Counted from the first letter of the stretch, positions 7,691-32,000 are shown. The stretch: DNA of 32,000 nt from Erysipelothrix larvae (GCF_001545095.1 NZ_CP013213.1:240001-272000), one strand, 5' to 3'. Program-made: numbers and translations. Notes: generated from the letters alone by a model not told the origin.

Positions 7691-7805
7691 AATGGAGGCG
7701 CAGATCAATTGCACATACTACATACTAATGTTGACAGGTATAGCTAAGTTAATCTTGTATGTTACCAAACTCCTTATCATAATTATACCTAAAGGGGGGC
7801 ATCGA

Positions 7806-8087
7806 ATGAAAAAAAGAATAATACTCAAGTTATCATTGGTCTTAATTTCAGTTTTGGTTATTTCAAGAACAGCAGAACTTATTGACTGTAATAGGCTTTC
7901 AAAAATGAAACCTCCATTACTTGCGATAAATACAAGGAATAATACGAATGTAGGATTGGGTTATACAATACAATTCGATCCCCTTTATCCCCACCAAATA
8001 ACAGGGGTGGTTCTATGGGGAGGGGATCAGAATAGAATCAGTGATCCATATTACGCATATTGTTTATGCTATTATAATTTTAAATAG
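7806..8087 (+). CDS. Small secreted or membrane-anchored hypothetical protein
   Basis: 93 aa from ATG 7806 with an AAAGGGGGG Shine-Dalgarno and an N-terminal hydrophobic signal/anchor (MKKRIILKLSLVLISVLVI). The ORF-track call 7497-8087 is a run-through from the IstB remnant. Confidence 0.45.
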   Translation: MKKRIILKLSLVLISVLVISRTAELIDCNRLSKMKPPLLAINTRNNTNVGLGYTIQFDPLYPHQITGVVLWGGDQNRISDPYYAYCLCYYNFK

Positions 8088-18486: not shown

Positions 18487-19458
18487 ATGCGCAGAGTTCA
18501 TGTTGATGAAGATGATGTAACACGGATGAGTCTTTTTGAGAAGGCAAAAATTTTAAGAAAGCAAAATCGTATCTTAATTTGGTATCAGTTGATTGCTTTA
18601 GGCGTTTTTGTTGCGATTAAATTAATCGTGTCTCAGTATTTAGTTAATGAAAATCATAATTGGATCAGTGGCGAACTCAGTGAACTCGAACTTGATGTAT
18701 GGCTTAGTATTGGTGGAATGCTTGTTGGAATTGGATACGTCTTTATTGTGAAGCACACTCAGAGGTATCAGTGGTGGAATGAGCGTCCCCAAACAATGAA
18801 TGTTGTTTCGTTTTTGAAAATACTCACAGTGATGGGTGGACTTCATTTAATTACGACTGTTGTACTTACGGTAATCGAGTATCTATGCAATACCTTTGGA
18901 TATTCTATCTATGTGGACCTCATTATTTTTGATGAGGTTTTATTTAGCATTCCATTAATGCTGGGAGGGATAATCATTGCGCCACTGGGTGAAGAATTAT
19001 TGTTTCGGGATGTGTTCATCAATCCAATTATTCGATTTGGGAAAGTATTTGCAATCGTCGCATCATCAATCATGTTTTCTTTGATTCATGGAAATATCCC
19101 ACAATCTGTCAATGCTTTTTTTATTGGAATTGTACTGGGATATGTGGCGATAGAATATTCAGTAGGGTGGGCAATGATTTATCACTTTATTAACAATGCA
19201 ATACTGAGTTATGCTTTTACATACCTCATATCCAGATATCGTGTAGAACAAAGGCAAAGCATCAGTTTTTACTTTGAACTGACTCTGTTTTTCATTGGTT
19301 TATACTTCGTTTTGAAACACAGTCATGATATCAAAATGTACATCAGAGATAATAAGACCCATCAGGGAAGCCATTTATATATGTTTGTTTCAATTAGTGG
19401 AATGCTCCTAATCCTTATGGGTATTCTTTCGATGGTATTATTAGTTGGAAAGCGATAA
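18487..19458 (+). CDS. CPBP-family intramembrane glutamic endopeptidase (CAAX protease/Abi-like)
   Basis: Motifs GEELLFRD, FSLIHGN and HFINN in a polytopic membrane protein. The start is uncertain (ATG 18487 after GGGGGAA, or TTG 18463). Confidence 0.88.
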   Translation: MRRVHVDEDDVTRMSLFEKAKILRKQNRILIWYQLIALGVFVAIKLIVSQYLVNENHNWISGELSELELDVWLSIGGMLVGIGYVFIVKHTQRYQWWNERPQTMNVVSFLKILTVMGGLHLITTVVLTVIEYLCNTFGYSIYVDLIIFDEVLFSIPLMLGGIIIAPLGEELLFRDVFINPIIRFGKVFAIVASSIMFSLIHGNIPQSVNAFFIGIVLGYVAIEYSVGWAMIYHFINNAILSYAFTYLISRYRVEQRQSISFYFELTLFFIGLYFVLKHSHDIKMYIRDNKTHQGSHLYMFVSISGMLLILMGILSMVLLVGKR

Positions 19459-19502
19459 AGCATTCCATTTTATCAATCAATTTTAAAGCCTATCTATCCA
19501 TG

Positions 19503-19538
19503 GACTCAATGATCAAACCTTATTGAGTCTTTTCTTTT
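19503..19538 (+). terminator. Rho-independent terminator after the CPBP gene
   Basis: GACTCAAT-gatcaaacctt-ATTGAGTC followed by TTTTCTTTT. Confidence 0.75.
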
Positions 19539-19764
19539 GAGGTGTCATACTACTGGAAATTAGGCCTAATACACGCATTAAATATTTATAACATAACGCT
19601 TGAAAATGGCGATAATTTTGGTGAAGTGGGAATGGGTAATGAAAGTTAACTAAAACATTATAACAATATGTATGGTATTTTTTTGAGTACTCAAATATAT
19701 AAGAAATCTATGACCATACTAATGTTAAATAATTATTTTAAAACGATACAAAAATTTTTTTATC

Positions 19765-19773
19765 TGCTAGAAT
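19765..19773 (+). promoter_or_regulatory. Extended -10 promoter of capsule locus 1
   Basis: TGCTAGAAT, with GATACA 17 nt upstream as a weak -35. The identical ATCTGCTAGAATTT recurs at 30348-30361. Confidence 0.6.
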
Positions 19774-19795
19774 TTTCATGTAATCAAATATGTTT

Positions 19796-19833
19796 ATGTG
19801 GCAATGGGGGAATTTTCATTGGGGTAGTGCCAT
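19796..19833 (+). promoter_or_regulatory. Conserved leader hairpin with an ops-like GGGGTAGTG
   Basis: ATGTGGCAATGGGGGAATTTTCATTGGGGTAGTGCCAT. The stem GTGGCA/TGCCAT encloses a G-rich loop. It is nearly identical to 30383-30419 and lies the same 23 nt from the -10 element. Confidence 0.6.
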
Positions 19834-19910
19834 AGAACTCATAAAGAGTGATTCTTTATCATTTACACGCTGTGAGATACTTATACGGCGTTCTTTATAC
19901 TACTCATAAA

Positions 19911-19996
19911 ACGTGATTCTACCTGGAAGGTGTTGATTGATATAATGCGTCCTGCATTTTTATCAAATCCTGGCCACTTAAGAATCGCGTTTTTTG
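19911..19996 (+). terminator. Leader-internal terminator-like structure (candidate attenuator)
   Basis: ACGTGATTCT (19911-19920) pairs with AGAATCGCGT (19981-19990) over 10 bp with one G-U pair, followed by a T-run. The loop holds an AATGC-gtcct-GCATT hairpin. Confidence 0.5.
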
Positions 19997-20092
19997 CTTA
20001 TGAAATATTACGAAACCTGTGAGAGTGGTTAGTCATAACAATACGAGATTATTGAAGGATTCTCATTGTCACAATGAGAGTAGGAGGAAAGT

Positions 20093-20815
20093 GTGGAACC
20101 AACTAGAGATTTATTGACAGATCAAGAAGATGATTTGAGTTTTGTGGAATTATACGAAGCCATCAAAAAGAAGATGATACTGATTTTGATCGTTGGACTT
20201 ATATGTGGGGGATGTGCATTTGGGTTTGCATCGGTGTTCATTCGCCCGATTTACGAAAGCAGTGCAATTTTGATTGTGAACAATCGAAGGGATGAATCAA
20301 ATCAAGCAATTACTTACGATGAAATTACATCAGCACAAAATCTAGCACCTGTCTATAGCATAATAATCAAAAGTAATATCGTCATGGGAAGACTCATCGA
20401 GAACTTGTCATTGGATATGACAACCAATGAATTAGCGTCCAAAGTGACCGTATCAGCAATTGATAAAACACAGGTTATTAATGTTGCAGTAAGGGATGAG
20501 AATCCAAACAATGCATTACTTTACATACAAGAAATTGTTGAAGTTGCACCTGAAATAATAGTAGAACTCGTTGAAGCAGGTTCGGTTGGCGTAGCATCTA
20601 TTCCACAGCTTCCGATTAATCCAGTATCACCAAACGTAAAAATGATTACAATTATGGCGTTTGTTTTTGGTGTGATGATATCAATTGGGGTTGTTCTATT
20701 AGGTCATATCTTAGACAGAACCTATCGGTTACCAGAACCTCTGGAGAAAGAACTGGGGATTCCAGTTATTGGAATAATTCCAAATTTTGAACAAGTAAGT
20801 CGAGGATTACGTTGA
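20093..20815 (+). CDS. Wzz/CpsC/CapA-like polysaccharide chain-length determinant (BY-kinase transmembrane modulator)
   Basis: 240 aa with two TM helices flanking an extracytoplasmic domain and the C-terminal VIGIIPNF kinase-activating tail. GTG start 5 nt after AGGAGG. Confidence 0.9.
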   Translation: MEPTRDLLTDQEDDLSFVELYEAIKKKMILILIVGLICGGCAFGFASVFIRPIYESSAILIVNNRRDESNQAITYDEITSAQNLAPVYSIIIKSNIVMGRLIENLSLDMTTNELASKVTVSAIDKTQVINVAVRDENPNNALLYIQEIVEVAPEIIVELVEAGSVGVASIPQLPINPVSPNVKMITIMAFVFGVMISIGVVLLGHILDRTYRLPEPLEKELGIPVIGIIPNFEQVSRGLR

Positions 20816-21540
20816 TGTTTAGGAAGAAAGTTAAGAAAAATAAACTGAATATTTTTGAAGGGACTCATATAATTCATGATGAATCTCCCTTCGCATATTT
20901 AGAAGGATATAAATCGTTGCGTACTAATTTAAGTTTTTTAACTTATGGCGGAGAAGTAAAAACGATTCTAGTTACAAGCAGTGTAGCACATGAAGGAAAG
21001 AGTACAATTGCGATAAACTTGGCACGCTCTTTAGCAATGGCCGGAAACTATGTGTTGTTAATTGATGGGGACTTAAGAGCACCAGTAATTCAAAAGTATC
21101 TGAAAATCACAAACAACATCAACAATGGACTATCTTCTGTACTTGCAAATAAGATTCCAGCAGAAGAAGCAATCTACAAGTATCCAGCAATGGAAATTGA
21201 AATTATGTTTTCGGGACCCATCCCTCCAAATGCGGTTGAACTGTTATCGAAAGGACGTGCTAAGCGACTTATTGGTGAATTAAGAGAACGATACGATTAC
21301 ATTATCATTGATTCTCCGCCTTCAGGTATCGTCACAGATGCAAAGGTATTGTCCCAAAGTGTGGATGGACTTCTGTATGTTGTTCGCCAAAACTTTGCTG
21401 AGAAAGATCTAATCAAAAGAACAACAAAAGATTATATAGCATCTGGTACGAACATTTTAGGAGTAGTCTTTAATAATTTCACACAAGATAACTTTGCGCG
21501 TAAGCGTAAGTTTAACAATTACTACTCAAGTGAAGACTAG
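20812..21540 (+). CDS. CpsD/CapB/YwqD-like tyrosine-protein kinase (BY-kinase)
   Basis: Walker A HEGKST, Walker A' LLIDGDLR and Walker B IIIDSPP. The C-terminal tail has only two tyrosines (NNYYSSED). Overlaps the modulator stop. Confidence 0.9.
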   Translation: MMFRKKVKKNKLNIFEGTHIIHDESPFAYLEGYKSLRTNLSFLTYGGEVKTILVTSSVAHEGKSTIAINLARSLAMAGNYVLLIDGDLRAPVIQKYLKITNNINNGLSSVLANKIPAEEAIYKYPAMEIEIMFSGPIPPNAVELLSKGRAKRLIGELRERYDYIIIDSPPSGIVTDAKVLSQSVDGLLYVVRQNFAEKDLIKRTTKDYIASGTNILGVVFNNFTQDNFARKRKFNNYYSSED

Positions 21541-21560
21541 CGTGATGACTTAAAAAAGAA

Positions 21561-21779
21561 ATGATCATAGAGACTAAAACACACATTATGGTAGATCAAT
21601 AAATCGAGATATATATATCAAAAGACCATGTTGAAAAAAATTGCACTGCATGGATAGGCGATGGGTGATAGCCCAAACAAGCACTTTGAAACTATAAGGA
21701 AGAACGTTGATTTCCCGGGTTATATCTTTTTGATTTAAAGATTATGACTCCCGTAAAGCATGTTCACATTAAGCGTTAA
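21561..21779 (+). pseudogene. Heavily eroded remnant of a PHP-family phosphotyrosine phosphatase (CpsB/CapC)
   Basis: Short collinear matches in different frames: MIIETKTHIM (cf. MIDIHSHI), HFETIRKNV, GYIFLI and TPVKHVHIKR (cf. TPVIAHIERY). The 370-nt gap is about half the length of an intact gene and full of stops. Confidence 0.4.
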
Positions 21780-21911
21780 TCTGGTCAGTATGGAAGGGGA
21801 AAAATACTGATACAGTGAAAAAAATAAGAGTTTTGAAATGTGCATTCCATGATGAAACCCTTATAAAGTGAAAGAATATTTGGAAGTTATTATTAAAGGT
21901 GGAACTAAAAA

Positions 21912-23771
21912 ATGAAGTACAAAATTATAACAACGATCATATTGGGGATTGATTTACTGACTGTATGGTTTGGATACATTCTTTCCTATTGGATACACAC
22001 AGATAGCTCAGTTACATTTTCAATTGCACTTGATGACATGCTTCGTGTTACACCCTATCTATTACTCATCTATTTCGTAGCATTCGCTATGTTACGGTTA
22101 TATCATACATTGTTAAGAGATGTCAGTGTTAATGTAGGCGTTAACATTGTAATTGCAACGATCATCGCTACTGCCTCGACAATTCTATTGCGTGAATATA
22201 CAGCAATCATAAGAAGCTTACCGATGAACACGATACTCATAAGTTTCTTTGTCATCACGTTGATAATGGAACTGAATCATTTTCATTATCGAATACTCTC
22301 AATTTATAAGCGCAAAATCATTGTTCGCTCGTTTCAAGAGAGAATTGTAATTTATGGGGCAGGTAATGCAGGAAGATTAGCGCTAAAAGAGTTGCAGACC
22401 AATGACAAATATCAATATCGAATCATTGGATTTATCGACGACGACCCTCAACTCAAAGGTTTAACAATTAAAGGAGTACCAGTGTTAGGAGACGGATCCA
22501 TGTTGGGGGACATTGTGAAAAGACATCGCGTTGATCATGTAATCATCGCGATCCAAAGGACCAATCCAAAACAAAGGAAACAAGTTATCAATAAAGTGCT
22601 GGATACTGGTGTCGTAAATGTGTCCCTGATGTCTTCACTTAGTCTTGATAAGCCACATGCGCAAGCTTCACCAATTCGTAAGATTGAAATACACGATTTA
22701 CTTAATCGAGATGTAGTTCATCTTGATACCGATCATATAAAGGAATGCTTATTTGAACAATCGATTCTAGTGACTGGAGCGGGGGGCTCCATAGGTAGTG
22801 AACTCGTACGGCAAATCGTTAAGTATAACCCAAAAAGTATTGTCCTTTATGACATCAATGAAAGTGGATTATATCACATTGAACAAGAATTATTATTTGA
22901 CCAAAGACAGGGAAATATTCAAGAAGGAATTGAAATCGTCGCAATCGTTGGATCAATCAACGATAAAGAGAAACTGAGAAAAATATTTGCAAGACATGGA
23001 TGTAATCAAGTGTTCCATGCAGCAGCATACAAACATGTTCCACTCATGGAACGGACACCAAGGGAAGCGATTAATAATAATATTTTTGGAACAAAAATGC
23101 TCATTGACGTAAGCATAGAATTTAATGTAAAAACTTTTGTGAATATATCAACGGATAAAGCAGTTAACCCAACAAATGTAATGGGAGCCACCAAGCGTTT
23201 TGTGGAAATGATGATACATAGTGAAACGTGCATGAAGTCAAAGACGCGCTTTGTGGCAGTTCGATTTGGGAATGTCTTAGGTTCAAATGGATCTGTGATT
23301 CCGCTCTTTCAAAAGCAAATTGAACAAGGGGGTCCAGTTACGGTTACCGATCCAAACATCGTCCGATACTTCATGACAATTCCAGAAGCCGTTAACCTTG
23401 TTCTAGAAGCATCAACCCTTGCTAAAGGGGGAGAAATCTTTGTTCTAGATATGGGGAAACCTGTGAAAATTAAAGATTTAGCAGAAAAAATGATTCAGTT
23501 ATCAGGATATGAACTAAACAAAGACATCCAAATTAAATTTGTTGGTTTAAGACCGGGGGAGAAATTATATGAAGAGCTTCTTATGGATGAAGAGGGGCTC
23601 AGACGAACTGCAAATGATTTGATTTTTATCGCACAACCACAAGTTTGGGAAGATGAAGTCATCGAAAAATATCTTCAAATATTAAAAAATGCAACGATGT
23701 ACTGTGAGCCAAGGGAGATAAAACACGCATTACAATCCGTTGTAAGGACCTATGTATTTGAAGAAAGATAA
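21912..23771 (+). CDS. Membrane-anchored CapD/PglF/WbpM-like UDP-HexNAc 4,6-dehydratase
   Basis: 619 aa with four N-terminal TM helices and two Rossmann regions (IYGAGNAG and VTGAGGSIGSEL). FHAAAYKHVPLME is typical of the family. Confidence 0.9.
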   Translation: MKYKIITTIILGIDLLTVWFGYILSYWIHTDSSVTFSIALDDMLRVTPYLLLIYFVAFAMLRLYHTLLRDVSVNVGVNIVIATIIATASTILLREYTAIIRSLPMNTILISFFVITLIMELNHFHYRILSIYKRKIIVRSFQERIVIYGAGNAGRLALKELQTNDKYQYRIIGFIDDDPQLKGLTIKGVPVLGDGSMLGDIVKRHRVDHVIIAIQRTNPKQRKQVINKVLDTGVVNVSLMSSLSLDKPHAQASPIRKIEIHDLLNRDVVHLDTDHIKECLFEQSILVTGAGGSIGSELVRQIVKYNPKSIVLYDINESGLYHIEQELLFDQRQGNIQEGIEIVAIVGSINDKEKLRKIFARHGCNQVFHAAAYKHVPLMERTPREAINNNIFGTKMLIDVSIEFNVKTFVNISTDKAVNPTNVMGATKRFVEMMIHSETCMKSKTRFVAVRFGNVLGSNGSVIPLFQKQIEQGGPVTVTDPNIVRYFMTIPEAVNLVLEASTLAKGGEIFVLDMGKPVKIKDLAEKMIQLSGYELNKDIQIKFVGLRPGEKLYEELLMDEEGLRRTANDLIFIAQPQVWEDEVIEKYLQILKNATMYCEPREIKHALQSVVRTYVFEER

Positions 23772-24393
23772 TCATGAAGGGAATTTGTATAAAGGTATGA
23801 ACTATTTAGTTTTGAAGCGTTTGATGGATATTAATATTTCGGTACTGGGACTCATCATCTTATTCCCAATTATGGCGCTTGTTGCAGCAGCAATCAAGCT
23901 GGATTCTGATGGAACCATCTTGTTTAAGCAAAAAAGACTCGGAAAACACAAGAAAGAATTTTACATTTTGAAGTTTAGAACGATGACGACGAATACTCCA
24001 GATAATGTACCAACAGACCAACTCCAAAATTCACACATGCTTATTACACGCGTTGGTGCATTCTTGAGAAAAACCAGTCTTGATGAACTGCCACAATTGA
24101 TCAACATAATTAAGGGTGATATGTCAATTATCGGTCCACGCCCGCAGTTGCCAAACCAAATTGAACTCACTCAATTGCGTGATGATGTGAGTGCATTTGA
24201 TGTCTGTCCTAGGTTAACAGGACTTGCCCAAATTAGCGGAAGGGATGAACTGTCAAATGACCAAAAAGCGTGGTTTGATGGGCAATATGTTACCAATATA
24301 GGTCTTAAAATGGACGTGGTGTGTTTTATACGAACAATTTTTAAAGTAATTAGTAGTGATGGAGTTGTTGAAGGAAAAAAGAATCATAAGTAA
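23752..24393 (+). CDS. Initiating undecaprenyl-phosphate sugar-phosphate transferase (PglC/CapM-type small bacterial sugar transferase)
   Basis: One N-terminal TM helix, KFRTM, and the hallmark LDELPQLINIIKGDMSIIGPRP. The start is ambiguous (23752 or ATG 23797). Confidence 0.88.
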   Translation: MYLKKDNHEGNLYKGMNYLVLKRLMDINISVLGLIILFPIMALVAAAIKLDSDGTILFKQKRLGKHKKEFYILKFRTMTTNTPDNVPTDQLQNSHMLITRVGAFLRKTSLDELPQLINIIKGDMSIIGPRPQLPNQIELTQLRDDVSAFDVCPRLTGLAQISGRDELSNDQKAWFDGQYVTNIGLKMDVVCFIRTIFKVISSDGVVEGKKNHK

Positions 24394-24435
24394 TTGAATT
24401 AATTAACGCAACTGGATTAATAGATGGAGGATCGT

Positions 24436-25296
24436 ATGATAAATATTTTAATCACAGGTTCAAATAGTTATATTGGTAGGCAATTAGAATTATGGTTAAA
24501 CAAAACGAAACACAATTATAGTATTACACGCATTTCATTACGGAATGGCACATGGAAAACGATGGATTTCTCAAAGTACGATGTTATTTATCATGCAGCA
24601 GGAATCGCACATATCAAAGAAACAAAGGCGAACAGCGATCTCTATCAAAAGGTAAATCGTGACTTGAGTTTTCAAGTTGCACTTAAAGCAAAAAAAGAGA
24701 AGGTTCATCAGTTTATCTTTCTAAGCTCAATGAGTGTGTATGGCACAAAACAAGAAATAATTACCCTTGATACATTTCCAAATCCAGAAACTTATTACGG
24801 ACTCTCAAAACTGCATGCGGAGCAGTTGCTTGAATCTCTCTCAGATGAATCATTCAAAGTTGCAATATTGCGCCTTCCGATGGTGTATGGTTTGAACAGT
24901 AAAGGTAATTTTACAAAACTAAAGAACTTTGTATGTAAGTGCCCGATTTTTCCATATATTAACAACCAAAGAAGCATGATTTACATTGATAATGTGTCTG
25001 AAATCAGCAAACAAATTATTGATGACCAGAGTTCTGGAGTGTTTTATCCACAAAATAATGAGTATGTCGACACGGGAAATCTAGTTAAATTAATTGGCCG
25101 CTATTATGGTAAACCCATTATTTTGTCAAAGGGATTTGCAGTTTTACTTAGAGCAATGAAACTCCCAATGGTAAAGAAATTGACGGGAAATCTGGTCTAT
25201 GACAAAAGTATGTCTGAGTATAAACGTGAATATAGGGTATGTAATCTTGAAGAGTCAATTCAAGAAATCTCAAATCAGGAAATGAAGAAAACATAA
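24436..25296 (+). CDS. NAD-dependent epimerase/reductase (CapN-like SDR)
   Basis: ILITGSNSYIGRQL nucleotide-binding motif and catalytic YGLSK. ATG 24436 lies 5 nt after GGAGG. Confidence 0.85.
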   Translation: MINILITGSNSYIGRQLELWLNKTKHNYSITRISLRNGTWKTMDFSKYDVIYHAAGIAHIKETKANSDLYQKVNRDLSFQVALKAKKEKVHQFIFLSSMSVYGTKQEIITLDTFPNPETYYGLSKLHAEQLLESLSDESFKVAILRLPMVYGLNSKGNFTKLKNFVCKCPIFPYINNQRSMIYIDNVSEISKQIIDDQSSGVFYPQNNEYVDTGNLVKLIGRYYGKPIILSKGFAVLLRAMKLPMVKKLTGNLVYDKSMSEYKREYRVCNLEESIQEISNQEMKKT

Positions 25297-25322
25297 ATCA
25301 TGTTAAATAGAAAGAGAAAAAT

Positions 25323-26450
25323 ATGAAGAAAGTAATGTTTGTAGCAACGGTTGTGAAGCGGCATATTGCGGCATTTCATCTTCCGTACCTCGAATGGTTT
25401 AAAAACAATGGGTATGAAGTTCATGTTTGTGCCCAAAACGATTATGAAAACGCTGATGATTGTATCATTCCACACTGTGATGTGTTTCATGAACTTCCGT
25501 TTGAACGCAATCCATTCAGGACAGGGAATTTTCAAGCGTATAAGGCGATAAAGAGACTTGTGGATACAACACATTTTGACATTATACATTGCCACACCCC
25601 TGTTGGTGGAACGGTAACTCGGCTCGCATCTCGCAGTGCTCGAAAACATGGAACAAAACTCATTTATACTGCACATGGTTTCCACTTTTATAAAGGGGCC
25701 CGGTTGCTGAATTGGATTCTCTTTTACTCAATCGAAAGATGGCTTTCCAGGTATACAGACCTCTTAATCACTATAAACCAAGAGGATTATTTACGTGCAC
25801 TTCGTTTTAAAGCAAAGAAGGTCAGCTTTACAAATGGTGTAGGGGTTAATCTTGATGCTATAAATGGTATTACAATTGATCGAAATGAAAAACGGAAGGC
25901 ATTAAACATTCCTCACGATGCGTTTTGCATCTTATCAGTCGGAGAATTAAGCACAAATAAGAATCATCGCATAATCATTGAAGCAATGTCGCGCATAGAA
26001 TCGAAGCAATTTCACTATATAGTTTGTGGTGCTGGGCCCTTAGAATCAACACTTCTTGAGTTGTCGAGTGAAATGGGGGTTTCTGAGCGTATTCATCTCC
26101 TTGGGTATCGAAATGATGTCATTGAAATTGTGAAAGCATCCGATGTATTTGTACTTCCTTCAATCCGTGAGGGACTGTCTGTTGCATTGATGGAAGCAAT
26201 GGCAGAAGGATTACCCGTTGTTGTGTCAGGATGCAGAGGGAATGTTGATCTTGTGAATCATGGACATAATGGATTTGTTGTTCGCAATAACAACAGTCAT
26301 GAGTATGCTCAAGCAATCATGCGTATTCAAAAGTCATCGGAAGTACAGTCAAAGTTTATGAAAAACAGTAAATCAAAAATTCAATGTTATTCGCTCAATA
26401 ATGTTATGGAAGAAATGTCAAAGCTCTACAGTGAGGTAATGGGTTCTTGA
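25323..26450 (+). CDS. GT4-family glycosyltransferase (CapM-type-1-like subgroup)
   Basis: 375 aa with N-terminal VATVVKRHIAAFHLPY and C-terminal EGLSVALMEAMAEGLPVV (E-x7-E). Confidence 0.88.
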   Translation: MKKVMFVATVVKRHIAAFHLPYLEWFKNNGYEVHVCAQNDYENADDCIIPHCDVFHELPFERNPFRTGNFQAYKAIKRLVDTTHFDIIHCHTPVGGTVTRLASRSARKHGTKLIYTAHGFHFYKGARLLNWILFYSIERWLSRYTDLLITINQEDYLRALRFKAKKVSFTNGVGVNLDAINGITIDRNEKRKALNIPHDAFCILSVGELSTNKNHRIIIEAMSRIESKQFHYIVCGAGPLESTLLELSSEMGVSERIHLLGYRNDVIEIVKASDVFVLPSIREGLSVALMEAMAEGLPVVVSGCRGNVDLVNHGHNGFVVRNNNSHEYAQAIMRIQKSSEVQSKFMKNSKSKIQCYSLNNVMEEMSKLYSEVMGS

Positions 26451-26535
26451 TCAACAATTAATCGTATAAAGAGCATGCGTTTTTATAAAATGACGCACAT
26501 AATCACAGCATATTTAGTTAAGGGGGGAGTCTCAT

Positions 26536-27693
26536 ATGAGATGTTTATTTGTTCATGATCATGAGTTTGTATTGAAAGAATCGAAAATCTATTCTTCAGG
26601 GGTATTATCAAATAATGTATTTGATCGTTATCTTCGGTGGTGTTCGACCTTGAAAATAATGGCTCGCTGTAAAATAGCAGAAGAAAACGGTGGCTTGCCT
26701 TTGGATGAATCAAGTCGTGTGAAGAATGTTTCGTTTGAACCATTACCAAACTTTTGGAGAATACAAACAATTGGCAGTGCAATTCGACGCATCAAGCAAT
26801 CTGTCAAAGGGAGTGATTCAATTATTGTTCAATTACCCAGTATCTACGGTATCATTGCTGCACACTATGCCATAAAATATAAAAAACCACTGATGGTAGA
26901 AGTTGTTGGTGATGCTCACGATGCATTTAGGTTTCATGGTAAAATCGGTAAGATACTTGCACCATACCTTTCATATTTTACACGTTGTGTTGTGAAAAAG
27001 GCTGATTATGTGCGATACGTAACACAAAAATATCTCCAAGAACGGTATCCTTCGATTGGGAAGACTGCAGGATATTCTGATGTGAATTTAGATAATATGA
27101 ATCAATCGGTTCTGACAAATCGTATTAAGAAAATAAATGAAAGCAACCTTTCACATCTTATATTAGGGACCATTGGACCTATAGATATTAAATACAAGGG
27201 ACAACACTATGTGATCAAAGCATTAGGACAACTAAAGCGACAAGGGTATGAGTTTGAATACTATCTTGTGGGGAAAGGGGATAATACCTATCTCAAAAAA
27301 ATTGCCACACAAGAAGGTGTCATTGATAAATTACATTTTTTGGGTGTTTTGAATCGCAAAGAAATTGTGAGATTTTTGAATAAAATTGATCTTTATATTC
27401 AACCAAGTCAAACTGAAGGACTGCCGCGAGCGCTTATAGAAGCAATGAATCAGGGGTGCCCAGTATTTGGTTCGAACGTCGGAGGGATTCCGGAATTAAT
27501 TGAGGGTGAAAACACATTTAATGTCGGAGATGTGAATCACATTTCAAGCATTTTAAGTTCACTTAAAAAGGCATCATTGACTTATATGGCATCAGAGAAT
27601 TTTATACACAGCAAACACTTTTATCCAGAAATTCTCAAGACTAAAGACGAGGCATTCTTTAAAGCCTTCTTTTTAGGAGAGAATTATGATTAA
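26536..27693 (+). CDS. GT4-family glycosyltransferase
   Basis: 385 aa with TEGLPRALIEAMNQGCPVFGSNVGGIPE. AAGGGGGGAG Shine-Dalgarno. Confidence 0.85.
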   Translation: MRCLFVHDHEFVLKESKIYSSGVLSNNVFDRYLRWCSTLKIMARCKIAEENGGLPLDESSRVKNVSFEPLPNFWRIQTIGSAIRRIKQSVKGSDSIIVQLPSIYGIIAAHYAIKYKKPLMVEVVGDAHDAFRFHGKIGKILAPYLSYFTRCVVKKADYVRYVTQKYLQERYPSIGKTAGYSDVNLDNMNQSVLTNRIKKINESNLSHLILGTIGPIDIKYKGQHYVIKALGQLKRQGYEFEYYLVGKGDNTYLKKIATQEGVIDKLHFLGVLNRKEIVRFLNKIDLYIQPSQTEGLPRALIEAMNQGCPVFGSNVGGIPELIEGENTFNVGDVNHISSILSSLKKASLTYMASENFIHSKHFYPEILKTKDEAFFKAFFLGENYD

Positions 27694-28786
27694 AGTACTT
27701 CATGTCGTATCAGATCTTGGAAGTGGTGGTGTTGAATCGCTTTTGTATACATACTATAAATACTTAAATCGAAAGCAGATTTGCTTCGATTTTATCGTTC
27801 ATGAGCCATCAACTGGGATGTTAGAAAAAGAATTAAAAGCATTGGGTTCTAAGATTTATCATGTGACGCCAAAGAAGAAATCACTGATCAAGAACTTCAC
27901 GGAAATACGGAATATTATTAACTATGGAAATTATGATGTCGTGCATAGTCATCTAAATCTTGCGAGTGTAGTACCACTTTATCTTGCAAAAAAAGCGCAG
28001 GTTGGTATAAGGATTAATCACTCTCATAGTGTTAATAGACAGCAGTCAATTCAAAAAACGATGATTTACGAGGTCCTTAAAAAACTAAATCATAATCTTG
28101 CGAGTCATTACTTTGCTGCATCTTGTGATGCAGGAACATGGTTGCATGGGATTGATTGGAAACCTACATCACAAAACCTTTTAGTGAGCAGTGTTATTGA
28201 TTTAAATCAGTTTATCTTTAGAAAAACTTGGCGAGATGAACTTAGACGTAATCTGAATCTTCGTAATAAGATCATCCTACTTCATGTAGGAAGGTTCTCT
28301 AGTGAAAAAAACCACCCGTTCTTAATCGATATCATAGAAAGGTTGGATGATCGATTTGCATTATTGCTTGTGGGAGATGGTGCCACAAGACCTTCGATTG
28401 AAGCGTTGGTAAAGCAAAAGAAGCTTGACAAACGTGTTCACTTTGTGGGAACGACACACAATGTTGGTCAATATATGAGTGCTTCTGATATATTCTTACT
28501 TCCGTCGATTCATGAGGGATTTGGAATCGTGCTTGTTGAAGCACAAGCAAGTGATCTTCCCATATTCGCTTCGAATACAATTCCAAGAGAAAGTGAAATC
28601 ACTGAACTCATAGAGTTTCTTCCAATTGATTCCGTAGATCATTGGGTGGATGGAATAATGAAGACGAACATTAAGCATAGAATATCAAGAAAAAAAGATT
28701 TGGAATCAGCCGGGTATACGCTTGAGGGCAAAGTAAAGGAGTTTGAAACATGGCTGAAACGCAATGTTCACAATAATCATGAATAA
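27686..28786 (+). CDS. GT4-family glycosyltransferase (EpsF-like)
   Basis: 366 aa with GSGGVES near the N-terminus and EGFGIVLVEAQASDLPIF. Overlaps the previous gene by 8 nt. Confidence 0.85.
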   Translation: MIKVLHVVSDLGSGGVESLLYTYYKYLNRKQICFDFIVHEPSTGMLEKELKALGSKIYHVTPKKKSLIKNFTEIRNIINYGNYDVVHSHLNLASVVPLYLAKKAQVGIRINHSHSVNRQQSIQKTMIYEVLKKLNHNLASHYFAASCDAGTWLHGIDWKPTSQNLLVSSVIDLNQFIFRKTWRDELRRNLNLRNKIILLHVGRFSSEKNHPFLIDIIERLDDRFALLLVGDGATRPSIEALVKQKKLDKRVHFVGTTHNVGQYMSASDIFLLPSIHEGFGIVLVEAQASDLPIFASNTIPRESEITELIEFLPIDSVDHWVDGIMKTNIKHRISRKKDLESAGYTLEGKVKEFETWLKRNVHNNHE

Positions 28787-28809
28787 TAGAGAGGAAATGA
28801 CTGCTTCTG

Positions 28810-29874
28810 ATGACTATATATGGAATTAATCTCATATTGATAGGAATCAATGCGTTTATCTTTCGGCTGATTACATTGAATCATCAGAGTGATACCAAAC
28901 GAAAAAAGATAAAAAAAGTGATGATTGGCTTGATTACCTTTCAATTAATACTTATATTAGCGATTAGGGATGACTTAATTGGGGTTGATGTTAAGGTATA
29001 CTTAGATTTTTTTGAATCAGCACGATCTACGACGTTATCTGTACTTCTTGAAAATCGATTTGAAAATGGGTACATCATATTGAATAAACTAATCAGTGTT
29101 CTCTTTCCTGATAATCAGATATTTCTGACAATAATAGCACTGATCTGTCTTATTCCAGTTGGGGTCTTTATCTACAGATATTCGCGATATCCAACTATGA
29201 GTTTTTTGTTATATATTGCATTTGAGTACTATTCATTTGTTTTCTCAGGACTTCGACAATCCATTGCATATGCGATTATACTTACAAGTTATACGTTTAT
29301 TCGACAACGGAAATTAGTGTCATTTCTTTTACTTATATTCTTTGCATCGTTATTTCATCGATCTGCTCTAATCTTCGTTTTTGCATACTTTATACACACA
29401 ATCCATCTTAAAAAAATAACGGTTATTGCACTGCTTGGACTAAACTTATTGCTTTTTATACTTCGAGTACCCTTATATACCTGGGTATCTCAGAGTTTCT
29501 ACAGTAGTTATGAGGTAGTAGAAAGTGCTGCGTATAATCGATTAATCTTTAGTACAGTTATTTTGATTGGTTGCTTCACACGCTATCGATATGCAATACA
29601 GTATAGTAAACATACAATTGGGCTCTATAATTATGTAATTCTTGGATGTTCGATGATGATGTTTGCGTCTGTAGGAACTAACGTGATGCGAATCGTAGAC
29701 TATTACTATATCTTCATTATTGTTTTGGTTCCTGAAGTGATTTATTCTCTTAAAGATTATAAAGTGAAGGTATTGATTAACTATGGTGTGATGATATTGA
29801 TGCTTTCCATCTATATCGTGTTCATGCAAGTCGATGGTTTTGAAATCGTTCCGTTTCGTTTTTTTTGGCCATAA
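28810..29874 (+). CDS. EpsG-family polysaccharide polymerase (Wzy-like)
   Basis: 354 aa, polytopic, with the EpsG-type GLRQSIAYAIIL ... FHRSALIF region. Confidence 0.75.
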   Translation: MTIYGINLILIGINAFIFRLITLNHQSDTKRKKIKKVMIGLITFQLILILAIRDDLIGVDVKVYLDFFESARSTTLSVLLENRFENGYIILNKLISVLFPDNQIFLTIIALICLIPVGVFIYRYSRYPTMSFLLYIAFEYYSFVFSGLRQSIAYAIILTSYTFIRQRKLVSFLLLIFFASLFHRSALIFVFAYFIHTIHLKKITVIALLGLNLLLFILRVPLYTWVSQSFYSSYEVVESAAYNRLIFSTVILIGCFTRYRYAIQYSKHTIGLYNYVILGCSMMMFASVGTNVMRIVDYYYIFIIVLVPEVIYSLKDYKVKVLINYGVMILMLSIYIVFMQVDGFEIVPFRFFWP

Positions 29875-29898
29875 AGCATTGTTGAATATCTCTGATCT

Positions 29899-29947
29899 AA
29901 CCTCTTCCTATTACACTGATACCAAAGTGTTGGGGGAGGTTTTTTTG
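29899..29947 (+). terminator. Rho-independent terminator closing capsule locus 1
   Basis: AACCTCTTCC pairs with GGGGGAGGTT across a ~23-nt loop and is followed by T7. Confidence 0.7.
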
Positions 29948-30351
29948 TAAAAGAAGAAGATAACTTATGTATTGAAGAATAAACGGGTTGAAAATAAATG
30001 TAGCCAATAATGTGATTTGAGATTAATGAAATTAATAACTAACAGCGAAAAAAGACATTTATAGCAAAATGGATTGGAATATAATACGATCAAATGATGA
30101 ATAGGATTCGTTAGAAAAAATGAATTTCGTTTGACATGAATGATTTCTATATCAAACCAAAGATTGATTGGGGAAGACGATATTAACTATAATTATCACA
30201 CATTTTCGCTTATTAAGTGTTTAATGGGTTATTATTTTTTAATTCAGAATTTAGATAAATAGTCGTTCTATATCAAATTGATTGACTTAACATTCAGTTT
30301 CATGCAGCAGATTTCTATTTTTTTGAGAGCGTGGTAAAAAAAATACAAATC

Positions 30352-30360
30352 TGCTAGAAT
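30352..30360 (+). promoter_or_regulatory. Extended -10 promoter of capsule locus 2
   Basis: TGCTAGAAT, within the same ATCTGCTAGAATTT block as locus 1. Confidence 0.6.
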
Positions 30361-30382
30361 TTAGAGGTAATCTTATAAGTTG

Positions 30383-30419
30383 ATGTGGCAATGGGTGGAA
30401 TTCCAAGGGGTAGTGCCAT
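30383..30419 (+). promoter_or_regulatory. Second copy of the conserved leader hairpin with GGGGTAGTG
   Basis: ATGTGGCAATGGGTGGAATTCCAAGGGGTAGTGCCAT, 23 nt downstream of the -10 element as in locus 1. Confidence 0.6.
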
Positions 30420-30496
30420 TTAATTCTTTTATTGTATCTTTAAGTTTTTTAAAGTGTTTTTACATATTATTGAGCGGATTATTTACTACTCTTACA

Positions 30497-30577
30497 GCGG
30501 GATTCTTAAAATTAGTCTATATGCGTGAATGTTCATTCACAAAGCATAACAGTCTACTTAAGAAATCTCGCTTTTTT
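30497..30577 (+). terminator. Leader-internal terminator-like structure, copy 2
   Basis: GCGGGATTCTT (30497-30507) pairs with AAGAAATCTCGC (30560-30571) with one bulge, followed by T6. The loop holds a nested TATGC/GCATA and GTGAAT/ATTCAC hairpin. Confidence 0.5.
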
Positions 30578-30696
30578 AGTTTTTTTATCGCGATGTATCT
30601 TAGGTATGCCTGTGAAGAACACTAATTATATTGTCCTTCATATCAAAGGTTTGAAAGAGAGTTGCCATAGTTTCATTATGGAAACGGGAGGTAAAT

Positions 30697-31422
30697 GTGG
30701 AACCTAAGAATAACATAAAAATGAATCAGGAAGAAGAAATAAGCATTGTTGATCTTTTGGGGGTAATCCGATCAAAACTTGTGCAAATTGCAATTGTGGG
30801 GGTTGCGTTTGCATTGTTTGCTTATATATTTTCTGTATTCTTTATTAATCCGGTATACGAAAGTAATGCGGTACTTATTGTAACCAACCGAAAAGATTCT
30901 GGAGGAAGTTCAATTACGAATGATGAAATTACATCTGCCAAGAATCTTGCATCAGTTTATAGCATTATCATCAAGAGTAATAACGTGATGGGAAATGTGG
31001 TGAATAATTTGTCGCTTGACATTACACCAGAGTCACTTGCAAAGAAAGTCACTGTTTCTGCAGTAGATAGTACACAAGTAATCCGTGTGTCTGTGCGTGA
31101 TACTGATAAAAAGGCAGCACTTCGCTATACTCAAGAAATAGTGAATGTCGCACCAGATATAATTGTAGAACTTGTAGGTGCTGGTTCAGTGGGAGTTGTA
31201 TCAACACCACAGTTGCCAACATCTCCGGTCTCACCTAATGTTCGTATGAATACATTAGTTGCTTTTGTATTGGGGCTAGCACTTAGTATCGGAATCGTTC
31301 TAATTAAGCACTTCTTAGATCGAACATATAAAATCCCTGAAAATGTTGAAGAAGAGTTGGGATTTCCAGTTATTGGTATTATTCCCAATTTTGAAGATGC
31401 AAGCCGAGGTATGAGAAAATGA
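30697..31422 (+). CDS. Wzz/CpsC/CapA-like modulator, paralogue of 20093-20815
   Basis: 241 aa with the same architecture and C-terminal VIGIIPNF tail. GTG start after GGGAGG. Confidence 0.9.
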   Translation: MEPKNNIKMNQEEEISIVDLLGVIRSKLVQIAIVGVAFALFAYIFSVFFINPVYESNAVLIVTNRKDSGGSSITNDEITSAKNLASVYSIIIKSNNVMGNVVNNLSLDITPESLAKKVTVSAVDSTQVIRVSVRDTDKKAALRYTQEIVNVAPDIIVELVGAGSVGVVSTPQLPTSPVSPNVRMNTLVAFVLGLALSIGIVLIKHFLDRTYKIPENVEEELGFPVIGIIPNFEDASRGMRK

Positions 31423-32000
31423 TCAGTTTTAAGAAAAGAAATAAGCAAGTCAAGAAGAATAAAACATACATTTTAAGTAACAAGTCTCCCTTTGCATATC
31501 TAGAAGGGTATAAGTCGTTAAGAACAAATTTAAGCTTTTTGACCTTTAGTGGTGAAGTGAAAACAATACTTGTGACAAGTTCTGTGCCGAATGAAGGGAA
31601 GAGTACCGTTTCAATAAATGTTGCACGTACATTATCGATGGCGGGTCATAAGGTACTGTTAATTGATGCGGATTTGAGAGCCCCTGTAATCCAAAAGTAC
31701 CTAAATGTAAACTATAAAATTACCAGTGGATTATCCTCGGTACTTGCGAGCAAAGCTCAAATTAAAGACGCAATTTATAAAAGTCCTAGTCTTGAAATGG
31801 ATGTCATCTTCTCAGGACCGATTCCACCAAATGCCGTGGAGTTACTTTCAAGGGATCGCGCAAAGACCTCGATTGAAACACTTCGAAAACGCTATGACTA
31901 TATCATCATAGACTCACCACCAGCTGGGGTAGTAACAGACTCGGTAGTATTGTCTCAACATGTTGATGGCGTTCTTTATGTGGTAAGACAAAATCATGCG
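31419..32000 (+). CDS. BY-kinase paralogue (partial; 3' end outside the window)
   Basis: Not in the ORF track because it has no stop in the window. My translation is MISFKKRNKQ...SSVPNEGKSTVSINVA (Walker A), LLIDADLR and IIIDSPP. ATGA overlap with the modulator gene. Confidence 0.88.
   Translation, partial: MISFKKRNKQVKKNKTYILSNKSPFAYLEGYKSLRTNLSFLTFSGEVKTILVTSSVPNEGKSTVSINVARTLSMAGHKVLLIDADLRAPVIQKYLNVNYKITSGLSSVLASKAQIKDAIYKSPSLEMDVIFSGPIPPNAVELLSRDRAKTSIETLRKRYDYIIIDSPPAGVVTDSVVLSQHVDGVLYVVRQNHA

What the first reader, a model, noticed from the sequence alone, without database searches (positions are those of the whole stretch)
19761..19833. Conserved promoter-proximal leader hairpin with an ops-like GGGGTAGTG, shared by both capsule loci
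About 72 nt, running from ATCTGCTAGAATTT (extended -10 TGCTAGAAT) through GGGGTAGTGCCAT, recur at 30348-30419. Identity is roughly four-fifths by eye. The spacing between the -10 element and the hairpin is the same 23 nt in both copies, while the DNA upstream has diverged. The element folds as a GTGGCA/TGCCAT stem around a G-rich loop. A small indel inside it changes the reading frame between copies (MWQWGNFHWGS versus MWQWVEFQGVV), so the conservation is at the nucleic-acid level and not the peptide level. The GGGGTAG core resembles the ops/JUMPstart core GGCGGTAG, which recruits RfaH to polysaccharide operons in Gram-negatives. NusG paralogues (LoaP in Bacillota, UpxY in Bacteroides) control polysaccharide operons through leader elements. 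No such factor is encoded in this window, and I do not recognise this motif as a described RNA family.
Basis: partly seen in the sequence, partly recalled or inferred. Interest (0 to 1): 0.75.

Follow-up and report, generated by a model that had tools for sequence, protein, structure and literature searches.

The report
Shared terminator-containing leader of two capsule operons
The repeated 72-base element is real. It is the front end of a roughly 330-base untranslated leader shared by two neighbouring polysaccharide operons of Erysipelothrix larvae, and that leader also carries a large built-in transcription terminator, so it looks like an undescribed on/off attenuator rather than an ops/RfaH-type site.

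Summary
The repeat is confirmed. Positions 19762-19833 and 30349-30419 are 79% identical and form the best direct repeat in the window. Each copy lies about 330 nt upstream of a wzz/tyrosine-kinase polysaccharide operon. The window is Erysipelothrix larvae: WzzB is 100% identical to AOC36_01320.

The similarity does not stop at 72 nt. It continues as conserved islands that define a large hairpin plus U-tract, an intrinsic terminator, inside each leader (fold z -5.3 and -5.7). A third, weakly homologous leader (L003, a metagenomic relative) has the same layout (z -4.6).

Its stability is no better than shuffled sequence.

GGGGTAG is not ops-like in any tested sense. It matches 7 of 12 ops positions, lacks C3 and the TG, and is absent from L003. 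It is complementary to the conserved ACTACTC island just 5' of the terminator, and L003 has GGGGUGUU:AACACCCC in the analogous place.

My best reading is a transcription-attenuation leader in which the G-rich 5' module controls read-through of the terminator. The effector is unknown. There is no Rfam match, no UNCG (LoaP-type) hairpin and no NusG paralogue in the window. No further copies turned up in 944 kb of related loci or in a metagenome scan.

The parts
19765..19773 (+). Locus A predicted extended -10 promoter element, TGCTAGAAT
   Evidence: Identical in both copies within the 14/14 block ATCTGCTAGAATTT. The -35 is weak, so the simple scan does not call it. The transcription start is inferred, not mapped.
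19792..19838 (+). Locus A 5' hairpin H1: lower stem GUUU/GAAC, upper stem UGUGGCA/UGCCAUA, G-rich interior
   Evidence: Fold -9.4 kcal/mol, z -1.36. Pair table with covariation against B and L003.
19806..19814 (+). Locus A first G-run, GGGGGAAUU
   Evidence: In the nascent-transcript fold it pairs with the terminator 5' arm GAUUCU.ACC at 19915-19924. The partner is not robust to the choice of 5' end.
19821..19829 (+).
   Evidence: Pairs with 19898-19905 (8 pairs). Present in the minimum-energy folds.
19898..19905 (+). Locus A conserved island TACTACTC, the 3' strand of LR, ending 2-5 nt before the terminator stem
   Evidence: TTACTACTC is identical in A and B within a poorly conserved spacer. 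Complementarity shown.
19908..19996 (+). Locus A leader terminator T: extended 86-nt hairpin plus UUUUUU
   Evidence: -29.2 kcal/mol, z -5.30, 0 of 200 shuffles as stable. Base stem conserved with covariation, U-tract follows.
20061..20095 (+). Locus A 8-bp hairpin (UCUCAUUG/CAAUGAGA) immediately 5' of the Shine-Dalgarno AGGAGG and the GTG start of wzzA
   Evidence: Read from the sequence. Analogous small hairpins precede the Shine-Dalgarno in B and L003. Not tested further.
20093..20815 (+). wzzA, chain-length determinant and first gene of locus A
   Evidence: Pfam Wzz and GNVR.
30352..30360 (+). Locus B predicted extended -10, TGCTAGAAT
30378..30425 (+). Locus B 5' hairpin H1
   Evidence: -10.8 kcal/mol, z -1.01. 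Pairs listed.
30397..30404 (+). Locus B GGAAUUCC segment of the first G-run region
   Evidence: Pairs with GGGAUUCU at 30499-30506, the terminator 5' arm, in the nascent fold.
30407..30415 (+). Locus B GGGGTAGTG, 5' strand of LR
   Evidence: 9-10 pairs with 30484-30493.
30484..30492 (+). Locus B TACTACTCT, 3' strand of LR
30496..30578 (+). Locus B leader terminator T: 77-nt hairpin plus UUUUUU
   Evidence: -26.0 kcal/mol, z -5.65, 0 of 200 shuffles. Pairs and tail.
30697..31422 (+). wzzB, first gene of locus B, identical to E. larvae AOC36_01320
   Evidence: Pfam. 100% identity to P0002.

Best explanation
The repeat is the promoter (-10) plus the first module of a roughly 330-nt 5' leader RNA. 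That leader is shared by two adjacent wzz/tyrosine-kinase polysaccharide operons of Erysipelothrix larvae and works as a transcription attenuator.

Shown:
- Each leader contains a large, very stable hairpin followed by a U-tract, i.e. an intrinsic terminator, about 100 nt before the start codon.
- The terminator's base stem, the G-rich 5' module and a short pyrimidine island just 5' of the terminator are the conserved parts. The DNA between them has drifted.
- The G-runs of the 5' module are complementary to that pyrimidine island (GGGGUAGU:ACUACUC) and, in predicted nascent-transcript folds, to the terminator's own 5' arm.

Inferred:
- The 5' module has two states. Folded locally as hairpin H1, it leaves the terminator free to form and the operon is off.
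- Paired at long range with the terminator's 5' flank and arm, it hinders the terminator and the polymerase reads through into wzz.
- An unidentified trans-factor or ligand recognises the conserved G-rich interior of the hairpin and sets the balance. Because both operons carry the same module, they would be co-regulated.
For: - The terminator hairpins are far more stable than shuffles in all three leaders: z -5.30, -5.65 and -4.57, with 0 of 200 shuffles as stable. Each is followed by T6, T6 or T5.
- The terminator base stem is conserved with two double changes: t0 A-U/G-C/A-U, and t3 U.G/G.U.
- A-B similarity runs through the terminator (nhmmer alignments to positions 172-244; islands).
- L003 is weakly but significantly homologous: B-C z 3.5-4.2 (0 of 400 shuffles), A-C z 2.1-2.6. 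It has the same order of parts.
- The long-range helix is 8-10 bp in A and B, and a perfect 8-bp GGGGUGUU:AACACCCC sits at the analogous place in L003.
- Complementarity between the 5' module and the terminator flank/arm is stronger than for 98.3%, 99.0% and 99.9% of genomic windows.
- In nascent-transcript folds the 5' region pairs with the terminator 5' arm in all three. Enforcing H1 instead costs 4.0, 5.2 and 17.5 kcal/mol.
- Upstream genes have their own terminators (19502-19530; about 29895-29946), so the leader terminator is not simply the end of the previous operon.
- H1 pairing is kept in L003 through G-C to A-U and G.U to G-C changes, and in the lower stem through U.G/G.U.
Against: - Only three distinct sequences from two organisms are known, so covariation is thin and the register of L003 against A/B is uncertain.
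- L003 is not detected by nhmmer or by the A+B covariance model.
- The 5' partner of the terminator arm differs between A/B (loop G-run) and L003 (hairpin 5' arm), and in A it changes with the assumed 5' end.
- Against composition-matched shuffles the complementarity is weak for A (21%) and marginal for B (5%).
- With the full transcript the terminator state is favoured by 10-11 kcal/mol in A and B, so read-through would need kinetics or a factor.
- The long-range helix itself does not overlap the terminator stem.
- H1 is no more stable than shuffles.
- No transcription start, termination or read-through has been measured.
- The effector is unknown.
Confidence: 0.45

Rival explanations
1. Processive antitermination by a specialised NusG paralogue (LoaP-like, or UpxY/RfaH-like). 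This is essentially the first reader's proposal. The conserved 5' hairpin or G-rich motif recruits the factor to RNA polymerase, which then ignores the leader terminator and any terminators inside the long operons.
For: The architecture parallels the LoaP targets dfn and mln: two operons of one genome share a nearly identical small leader element in otherwise different long leaders, and each leader holds a large intrinsic terminator (PMC12691694). LoaP genes are often associated with polysaccharide clusters. A leader terminator is present in all three leaders.
Against: - No UNCG-tetraloop hairpin occurs in any of the three leaders. LoaPs of several species bind that hairpin type.
- The ops test fails at 7 of 12 positions, with C3 and T11-G12 absent (PMC5995543). 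GGTAG is not conserved in L003.
- No NusG-like ORF is present in the window, L001-L006 or L085, whereas UpxY is the first gene of its operon.
- No convincing internal terminator was found inside locus A.
- Very long terminator stems resisted one processive system, conAn (PMC10325885).
- The rest of the genome could not be searched.
Confidence: 0.15
2. A passive 5' hairpin or shared promoter region. The element would be the conserved core promoter plus a 5'-proximal stem-loop that stabilises the mRNA, possibly with Shine-Dalgarno-like G-runs acting like a STAB-SD. It would have no switching role, and the leader terminator would merely damp expression constitutively.
For: Other Erysipelothrix wzz leaders that are short and lack a terminator also start with a hairpin right after the -10. 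L008 has a GUUG lower stem and a UGUGGU/AUCACA upper stem resembling H1. L014/L019 and L017 differ by compensatory changes. H1's energy is unremarkable. The G-runs resemble Shine-Dalgarno sequences (read from the sequence).
Against: A generic stabiliser does not explain 13/13 identity of the loop G-runs between A and B while the spacer drifted. It also does not explain the conserved complementary island ACTACTC. In A and B the hairpin would begin about 12 nt from the predicted 5' end, which from my own knowledge of Bacillus mRNA decay is far for 5'-end protection. A strong terminator in a leader is costly unless it is regulated.
Confidence: 0.2
3. A DNA operator. The conserved block from about +10 to +55 would be the binding site of a transcription factor that represses or activates both promoters, and the inverted repeat would be its two half-sites.
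For: The element sits directly downstream of the -10, as many repressor sites do. Both arms are perfectly conserved between A and B. A symmetric change of both arms in L003 (GTGGCA/TGCCAT to TGTGAC/GTCACA) would also be expected for a palindromic operator.
Against: The distance between the arms is 24, 23 and 31 nt in A, B and L003, which does not suit fixed half-site spacing. Several stem positions are G.U/U.G (u2, l1, l2, l4), which are complementary only in RNA. This reading does not explain the complementarity to downstream islands or the conserved terminator.
Confidence: 0.1
4. A small RNA gene or leader peptide. The promoter-to-terminator unit of about 215 nt would be made as a stand-alone regulatory RNA with a G-rich seed, or the ATG inside the hairpin would start a regulatory leader peptide.
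For: A promoter, a conserved 5' region and a strong terminator together look like an sRNA gene. An ATG lies in the 5' arm in all three copies.
Against: The reading frames differ between A and B, and in L003 the ATG is followed directly by TGA. No Shine-Dalgarno sits at a usable distance in A. No credible separate promoter lies between the terminator and wzz in A, and only a 9/12 match lies too close to the Shine-Dalgarno in B. The unit is always placed directly upstream of wzz.
Confidence: 0.05

Closest known systems
LoaP-dependent leaders of the dfn and mln operons (Bacillus velezensis)
   Same: Both are long 5' leaders. In both, a short conserved element near the 5' end is shared by two operons of one genome, and a large intrinsic terminator sits inside the leader. 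Both family contexts include polysaccharide clusters in Bacillota (PMC12691694).
   Different: The LoaP element is a small UNCG-tetraloop hairpin. Here the hairpin encloses 23-31 nt of G-rich sequence and no UNCG hairpin exists. No loaP gene lies next to the loci. LoaP acts without alternative RNA pairing, whereas here the conserved motif is complementary to the terminator's flank.
ops / JUMPstart with RfaH (Enterobacteria) and HP-ops with UpxY (Bacteroides)
   Same: Both sit in the 5' untranslated region of long polysaccharide operons. Both have a GGTAG-containing G-rich motif. In Bacteroides a nascent RNA hairpin lies next to the site (PMC11685472).
   Different: Only 7 of 12 ops positions match, and C3 and the TG pause dinucleotide are missing (PMC5995543). 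The motif is not kept in the L003 homologue. ops is read as non-template DNA, while here the motif has a conserved RNA pairing partner. UpxY is the first gene of its operon, and here wzz is first.
EAR (eps-associated RNA) of Bacillales eps/capsule operons
   Same: Both are cis-acting RNAs linked to antitermination in wzz/kinase-type exopolysaccharide operons of Bacillota (Irnov and Winkler 2010, cited in PMC12691694).
   Different: From my own knowledge, EAR lies inside the operon between the second and third genes, not in the 5' leader. There is no Rfam match here, even at E up to 10. The equivalent 372-nt gap in locus A shows no significant structure.
Classical terminator/antiterminator attenuators with a 5' anti-antiterminator (PyrR-type leaders, OFF riboswitches)
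   Same: The order of parts is the same: a conserved 5' hairpin, a segment able to pair with the terminator's 5' arm, then a terminator plus U-tract. The logic also fits, in that stabilising the 5' hairpin would favour termination.
   Different: No known binding motif or aptamer is present (Rfam negative). The sequence between hairpin and terminator is not conserved, so any aptamer would be only the roughly 50-nt hairpin. The antiterminator pairing is predicted, not demonstrated, and it differs in register between homologues.
5'-terminal stabilising stem-loops of Gram-positive mRNAs
   Same: Both are hairpins close to the transcript 5' end, and such hairpins are common to other Erysipelothrix wzz leaders.
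   Different: In this case the interior sequence is conserved, a conserved complementary partner lies downstream, and the element is associated with a leader terminator.

Membership tests
ops / JUMPstart (RfaH recruitment site) | 12-nt ops sequence GGCGGTAGCGTG, including C3 (C3:G8 pair), G5/T6 and the T11-G12 pause dinucleotide | tested here: not met
   Aligned on GGTAG, 19820-19831 matches 7 of 12 positions. C3, C9, T11 and G12 are all different (sequence; ops12 from PMC5995543).
ops / JUMPstart (RfaH recruitment site) | Motif conserved among homologous leaders | tested here: not met
   L003 has GGGGTGTT and ATAGGGCG instead. No GGTAG is present.
ops / JUMPstart (RfaH recruitment site) | RfaH-type NusG paralogue in the genome | not testable with these tools
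   None is present in the 32-kb window or the held loci of the same species.
LoaP-dependent leader | Small UNCG-tetraloop RNA hairpin in the leader | tested here: not met
   Regex plus stem check over all three leaders found no UNCG closed by 3 or more pairs. Feature taken from PMC12691694.
LoaP-dependent leader | Intrinsic terminator inside the 5' leader | tested here: met
   Hairpins with z -5.3, -5.65 and -4.57, each followed by a U-tract.
LoaP-dependent leader | loaP gene adjacent to the regulated cluster | tested here: not met
   No NusG-domain ORF in the window (Pfam). phmmer with RfaH against 2289 ORFs of all held loci hit only two Clostridia loci. A distant loaP elsewhere in the genome is not excluded.
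UpxY/UpxZ system (Bacteroides) | First two genes of the operon encode the NusG paralogue and its inhibitor | tested here: not met
   The first genes are wzz and a CpsD-like kinase. Feature taken from PMC11685472.
EAR RNA (Rfam) | Match to the covariance model; location between the second and third genes of the operon | tested here: not met
   No Rfam match at gathering score or at E up to 10. The element is in the 5' leader.
Any described RNA family (Rfam 15) | Score at or near a family's gathering threshold | tested here: not met
   Searches give only noise (best ceN53 at 19.4 bits against a gathering score of 50).
Terminator/antiterminator attenuator (generic kind) | Intrinsic terminator between promoter and first gene | tested here: met
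Terminator/antiterminator attenuator (generic kind) | Conserved alternative pairing that excludes the terminator | tested here: inconclusive
   Predicted in all three leaders and better than 98-99.9% of genomic windows. Against shuffles it reaches only 21%, 5% and 0.3%, and the register differs between A/B and L003.
Terminator/antiterminator attenuator (generic kind) | Measured condition-dependent termination or read-through | not testable with these tools
   Needs Term-seq, reporters or in vitro transcription.

The most novel reading that the evidence does not exclude
The roughly 50-nt hairpin with two facing G-runs (5' CAAWGGG / 3' AGGG) and a variable apical stem is the sensor of a new class of attenuator. 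It would be either a small riboswitch aptamer or the binding site of a so far unknown RNA-binding regulator, possibly a divergent NusG paralogue. It would switch two capsule/exopolysaccharide loci of Erysipelothrix together by controlling a long leader terminator.
Probability: 0.25. Interest if true: 0.6.

Novelty: new variant of a known kind. Interest (0 to 1): 0.4.

Why it matters
As far as I could find, nothing has been described about how Erysipelothrix species regulate their capsule or exopolysaccharide loci, and the genus includes an animal and human pathogen. A shared attenuator leader would give a direct handle on co-regulation of two adjacent, strain-variable polysaccharide loci. It would also add a leader type not represented in Rfam. 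The practical value is that the hypothesis is compact: three short sequence blocks and one terminator can be tested with a handful of reporter mutants. The reach is limited, because only three copies in two organisms are known.

Tried and rejected
- **Rfam.** Gathering thresholds over the whole window and E up to 10 over 19400-32000 and L003 9500-10100 gave only noise.
- **Protein-anchored search for relatives.** I scanned genome contigs with a Wzz alignment and obtained 70 loci. I also fetched contigs for eleven Wzz homologues, of which eight were on record. nhmmer and covariance model R1 over 944 kb found no further copy. Most relatives have short or no leaders.
- **Circularity caught.** My first nhmmer hit to L003 was circular, because L003 was in the query. 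Redone without it, there was no hit. Homology of L003 therefore rests on the global-alignment shuffle test and on the shared layout.
- **Metagenome pattern scan.** The pattern GCTAKAAT..ATGTGRCAAWGGG..GYCAY returned four loci with no leader-like context; they appear by eye to lie within coding sequence.
- **Third E. larvae wzz locus.** L001 (AOC36_08745) has a 430-nt upstream region but none of the motifs.
- **Leader peptide.** Rejected because the frames differ and L003 reads ATG-TGA.
- **Anti-Shine-Dalgarno role for ACTACTC.** It is complementary to GAGTAG next to the Shine-Dalgarno in A, but this is not kept in B or L003.
- **TTG-GGG-TAG mini-ORF in A.** Not kept in B.
- **CsrA-type GGA sites.** L003 lacks GGA in its G-runs.
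- **EAR-like element in the 21541-21911 gap.** No Rfam hit, and fold z -0.32.
- **LoaP in the genome.** Not answerable.

Full report
**What is there.** The repeat finder ranks 19762-19823 / 30349-30410 (62 nt, 79% identity) as the best direct repeat in the 32-kb window. The pairwise alignment shows blocks of perfect identity (ATCTGCTAGAATTT, ATGTGGCAATGGG, GGGGTAGTGCCAT) separated by diverged bases and one single-base indel. The 13-mer GGGGTAGTGCCAT, with up to two mismatches, occurs only at these two places. Each copy lies about 330 nt upstream of a GTG-initiated wzz gene, which is followed by a CpsD-like tyrosine kinase. In locus A these are followed by a CapD-like dehydratase, a sugar transferase, glycosyltransferases and an EpsG-like polymerase.

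**The organism.** It is Erysipelothrix larvae. WzzB is 100% identical to protein AOC36_01320 of that species. A second strain (Logan SRR6161627, loci L002 and L085) carries the same two leaders, each with a single base difference.

**The similarity is longer than reported.** The A-B alignment continues beyond the 72 nt as islands of identity in a drifted background: TTACTACTC, CG.GATTCT, CTTAAGAA..TCGC.TTTTTT, CCTGTGA and the ribosome-binding site. nhmmer aligns A to B over 160-235 nt with E = 1e-8 to 3e-11. The global alignment scores 13-14 sd above dinucleotide shuffles. Because the two Wzz proteins are only 60% identical, neutral non-coding DNA of that age should be unalignable. The islands are therefore under constraint.

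**A terminator in the leader.** The islands CG.GATTCT and AGAA..TCGC are the two strands of the base of a long hairpin that is followed directly by a run of T.
- In A the hairpin spans 19908-19993 and is followed by TTTTTT.
- In B it spans 30496-30572 and is followed by TTTTTT.
- Folded alone, these segments give -29.2 and -26.0 kcal/mol, with z = -5.30 and -5.65. None of 200 shuffles folds as well.
- The simple terminator scan misses them only because the stem is extended and branched rather than closing a loop of 8 nt or fewer.
- Between A and B the base stem shows two double changes that keep pairing: A-U to G-C, and U.G to G.U.

The genes upstream of each leader have their own terminators (19502-19530; about 29895-29946, read). 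The leader hairpins are therefore not just the ends of the preceding operons.

**A third example.** Among contigs that encode Wzz homologues, one family has the same layout. This is L003-L006, from ERR123797xx metagenomes, with a Wzz 52-56% identical to A and B. A TATAAT -10 is called by the scan. Twelve bases later comes GATGTGACAAAGGGG, then a 3' arm GTCACA. After a spacer comes AACACCCC, and five bases later a 107-nt hairpin (z -4.57, 0 of 200 shuffles) followed by TTCTTTTT. I first scored this leader with a profile that contained it, which was circular. Without it, neither nhmmer nor the covariance model of A+B detects it. A global alignment against shuffles is nevertheless significant: B-C z 3.5-4.2 (0 of 400 shuffles), and A-C z 2.1-2.6 (4-9 of 400). 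I treat L003 as a distant homologue, with that caveat.

The GTGGCA/TGCCAT inverted repeat exists and extends into a lower stem (GUUK paired with KAAY).
- Across A, B and L003 the pairs are kept. Upper-stem position u5 changes from G-C to A-U, u2 from G.U to G-C, and lower-stem position l4 from U.G to G.U.
- The G.U pairs and the variable distance between the arms (24, 23 and 31 nt) fit an RNA stem better than a DNA operator.
- The hairpin is not more stable than shuffled sequence (z -1.36, -1.01 and -0.51).
- It is absent from the minimum-energy fold of longer transcripts, and forcing it costs 4.0, 5.2 and 17.5 kcal/mol.
- In the local folds of B and L003 the interior looks like a variable apical stem flanked by two facing G-runs (5' A(A/U)GGG, 3' AGGG...). 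In A the first G-run is drawn into the apical stem.

H1 is thus plausible but not proven.

**GGGGTAG is not ops-like.** The E. coli ops element is GGCGGTAGCGTG. C3 pairs with G8, G5 and T6 are read by RfaH, and T11-G12 induces the pause (PMC5995543). Aligned on GGTAG, the site here matches 7 of 12 positions and lacks C3, T11 and G12. L003 has no GGTAG. What the motif does have is a conserved partner. GGGGUAGU(G) is complementary to the island (U)ACUACUC(U), which lies 65 nt downstream and ends 2-5 nt before the terminator stem. This gives 8 pairs in A and 9-10 in B. In L003 a G-run in the same hairpin, GGGGUGUU, is perfectly complementary to AACACCCC at the equivalent place. If the positions correspond, three pairs change on both sides. 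This long-range helix appears in the minimum-energy folds of A and L003, and in the centroid fold of B.

**Possible switch.** When the transcripts are folded only up to the terminator's 5' arm, as during transcription, a segment of the 5' module pairs with that arm in all three leaders, nested outside the long-range helix:
- A: GGGGGAAUU with GAUUCU.ACC.
- B: GGAAUUCC with GGGAUUCU.
- L003: GGAGUUG.UGU with ACGCGAUUCU.

The duplex between the 5' module and the 30 nt around the terminator's 5' arm is better than for 98.3%, 99.0% and 99.9% of equally long windows of this genome. Against shuffles of the G-rich module itself the figures are only 21%, 5% and 0.3%. The partner segment differs between A/B and L003, and in A it depends on the assumed 5' end. 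In full-length leaders the terminator state wins by 10.4, 10.9 and 3.2 kcal/mol. I therefore regard the terminator as shown, the long-range helix as likely, and the antiterminator as a reasonable inference.

**Mechanism I commit to.** The leader is a transcription attenuator. The conserved 5' module either folds on itself, so the terminator forms and the operon is off, or pairs with the terminator's 5' flank and arm, giving read-through. An unknown factor or ligand that recognises the G-rich interior of the hairpin sets the balance, and both operons respond together. My confidence is about 0.45 for the whole picture and higher for the presence of a regulatory terminator.

**Comparison with known systems.**
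- *LoaP leaders.* The layout resembles the LoaP-controlled dfn and mln leaders, which have a small shared hairpin plus a large NusA-dependent leader terminator (PMC12691694). The defining UNCG-tetraloop hairpin is absent, and no NusG-like gene lies in the window or in other held contigs of this species.
- *UpxY systems.* These encode the factor as the first gene of the operon (PMC11685472). Here wzz is first.
- *EAR.* It lies inside eps operons and has an Rfam model. There is no match.
- *Processive antitermination generally.* Very long terminator stems resisted one processive antitermination system (PMC10325885), which is a mild argument against that mode here.
- *Passive 5' stabiliser.* Other Erysipelothrix wzz leaders that lack a terminator also begin with a hairpin immediately after the -10. 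One of them (L008) resembles H1 in both stems. A passive 5' stabiliser therefore remains a serious rival for the hairpin itself, though it does not explain the conserved G-runs and their conserved partner.

**Distribution and novelty.** No further copy was found in 944 kb around 73 Wzz loci of Erysipelothrix and Clostridia. None was found in four extra loci, none in the third wzz locus of E. larvae (L001), and none in a pattern scan of JGI metagenomes, which gave four hits with no leader-like context, apparently within coding sequence. The element is thus narrow: three distinct sequences in two organisms. It is an undescribed variant of a familiar kind of control, a terminator-containing leader, and not a new principle. 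Interest is moderate.

Noticed in passing
window 30297-32000 versus L085 3600-5400: Between two E. larvae strains, identity is 98-100% through locus A and the whole B leader. It drops to 74-93% from the first bases of wzzB onward (WzzB is 89% identical at protein level). A recombination breakpoint therefore sits at the leader/wzz junction, and locus B behaves as a variable, serotype-like cassette.
   Followed up: partly
window 21541-21911: A 372-nt non-coding gap lies between the kinase gene and the CapD-like gene of locus A, the same position as the EAR RNA in Bacillus eps operons. It has no Rfam match and no significant fold (z -0.32). In locus B of the other strain the same gap is only 94 nt.
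   Followed up: partly
L008 183-215; L014 1098-1113; L017 9937-9952; L018 9886-9945: Other Erysipelothrix wzz leaders are short, lack a terminator, and start with a hairpin right after the -10. L008 has CGUUG/CAAUG plus UGUGGU/AUCACA, resembling H1. L014/L019 (GAUGCC/GGCAUC) and L017 (GAUGCU/AGCAUU) differ by compensatory changes. L018 and L081 have two G-runs flanking a hairpin.
   Followed up: partly
window 29895-29946: Locus A ends in a terminator with a large loop (AACCTCTTCC ... GGGGGAGGTT followed by T7). The simple scan does not report it.
   Followed up: no
window 6956-8087: An IS21-type IstB helper gene is split into two ORFs (142 and 196 aa), so it is probably a decayed insertion sequence. 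Several neighbouring ORFs have no Pfam match.
   Followed up: no
window 20061-20079, 30651-30680; L003 9968-9990: In all three leaders a small hairpin lies immediately 5' of the Shine-Dalgarno sequence of wzz. In A it is an 8-bp stem, UCUCAUUG/CAAUGAGA.
   Followed up: no
L001 9740-9770: The third wzz locus of E. larvae (AOC36_08745) has a different upstream region containing a perfect palindrome, AATCTTTTCGCATATGCGAAAGATT. This is possibly an operator or hairpin of a separate control system.
   Followed up: no
L026 3797-4351; L032 7573-8127: Two Clostridia wzz loci carry a NusG-like ORF about 2 kb downstream of wzz. These were the only NusG-like ORFs among 2289 ORFs of all held loci.
   Followed up: no
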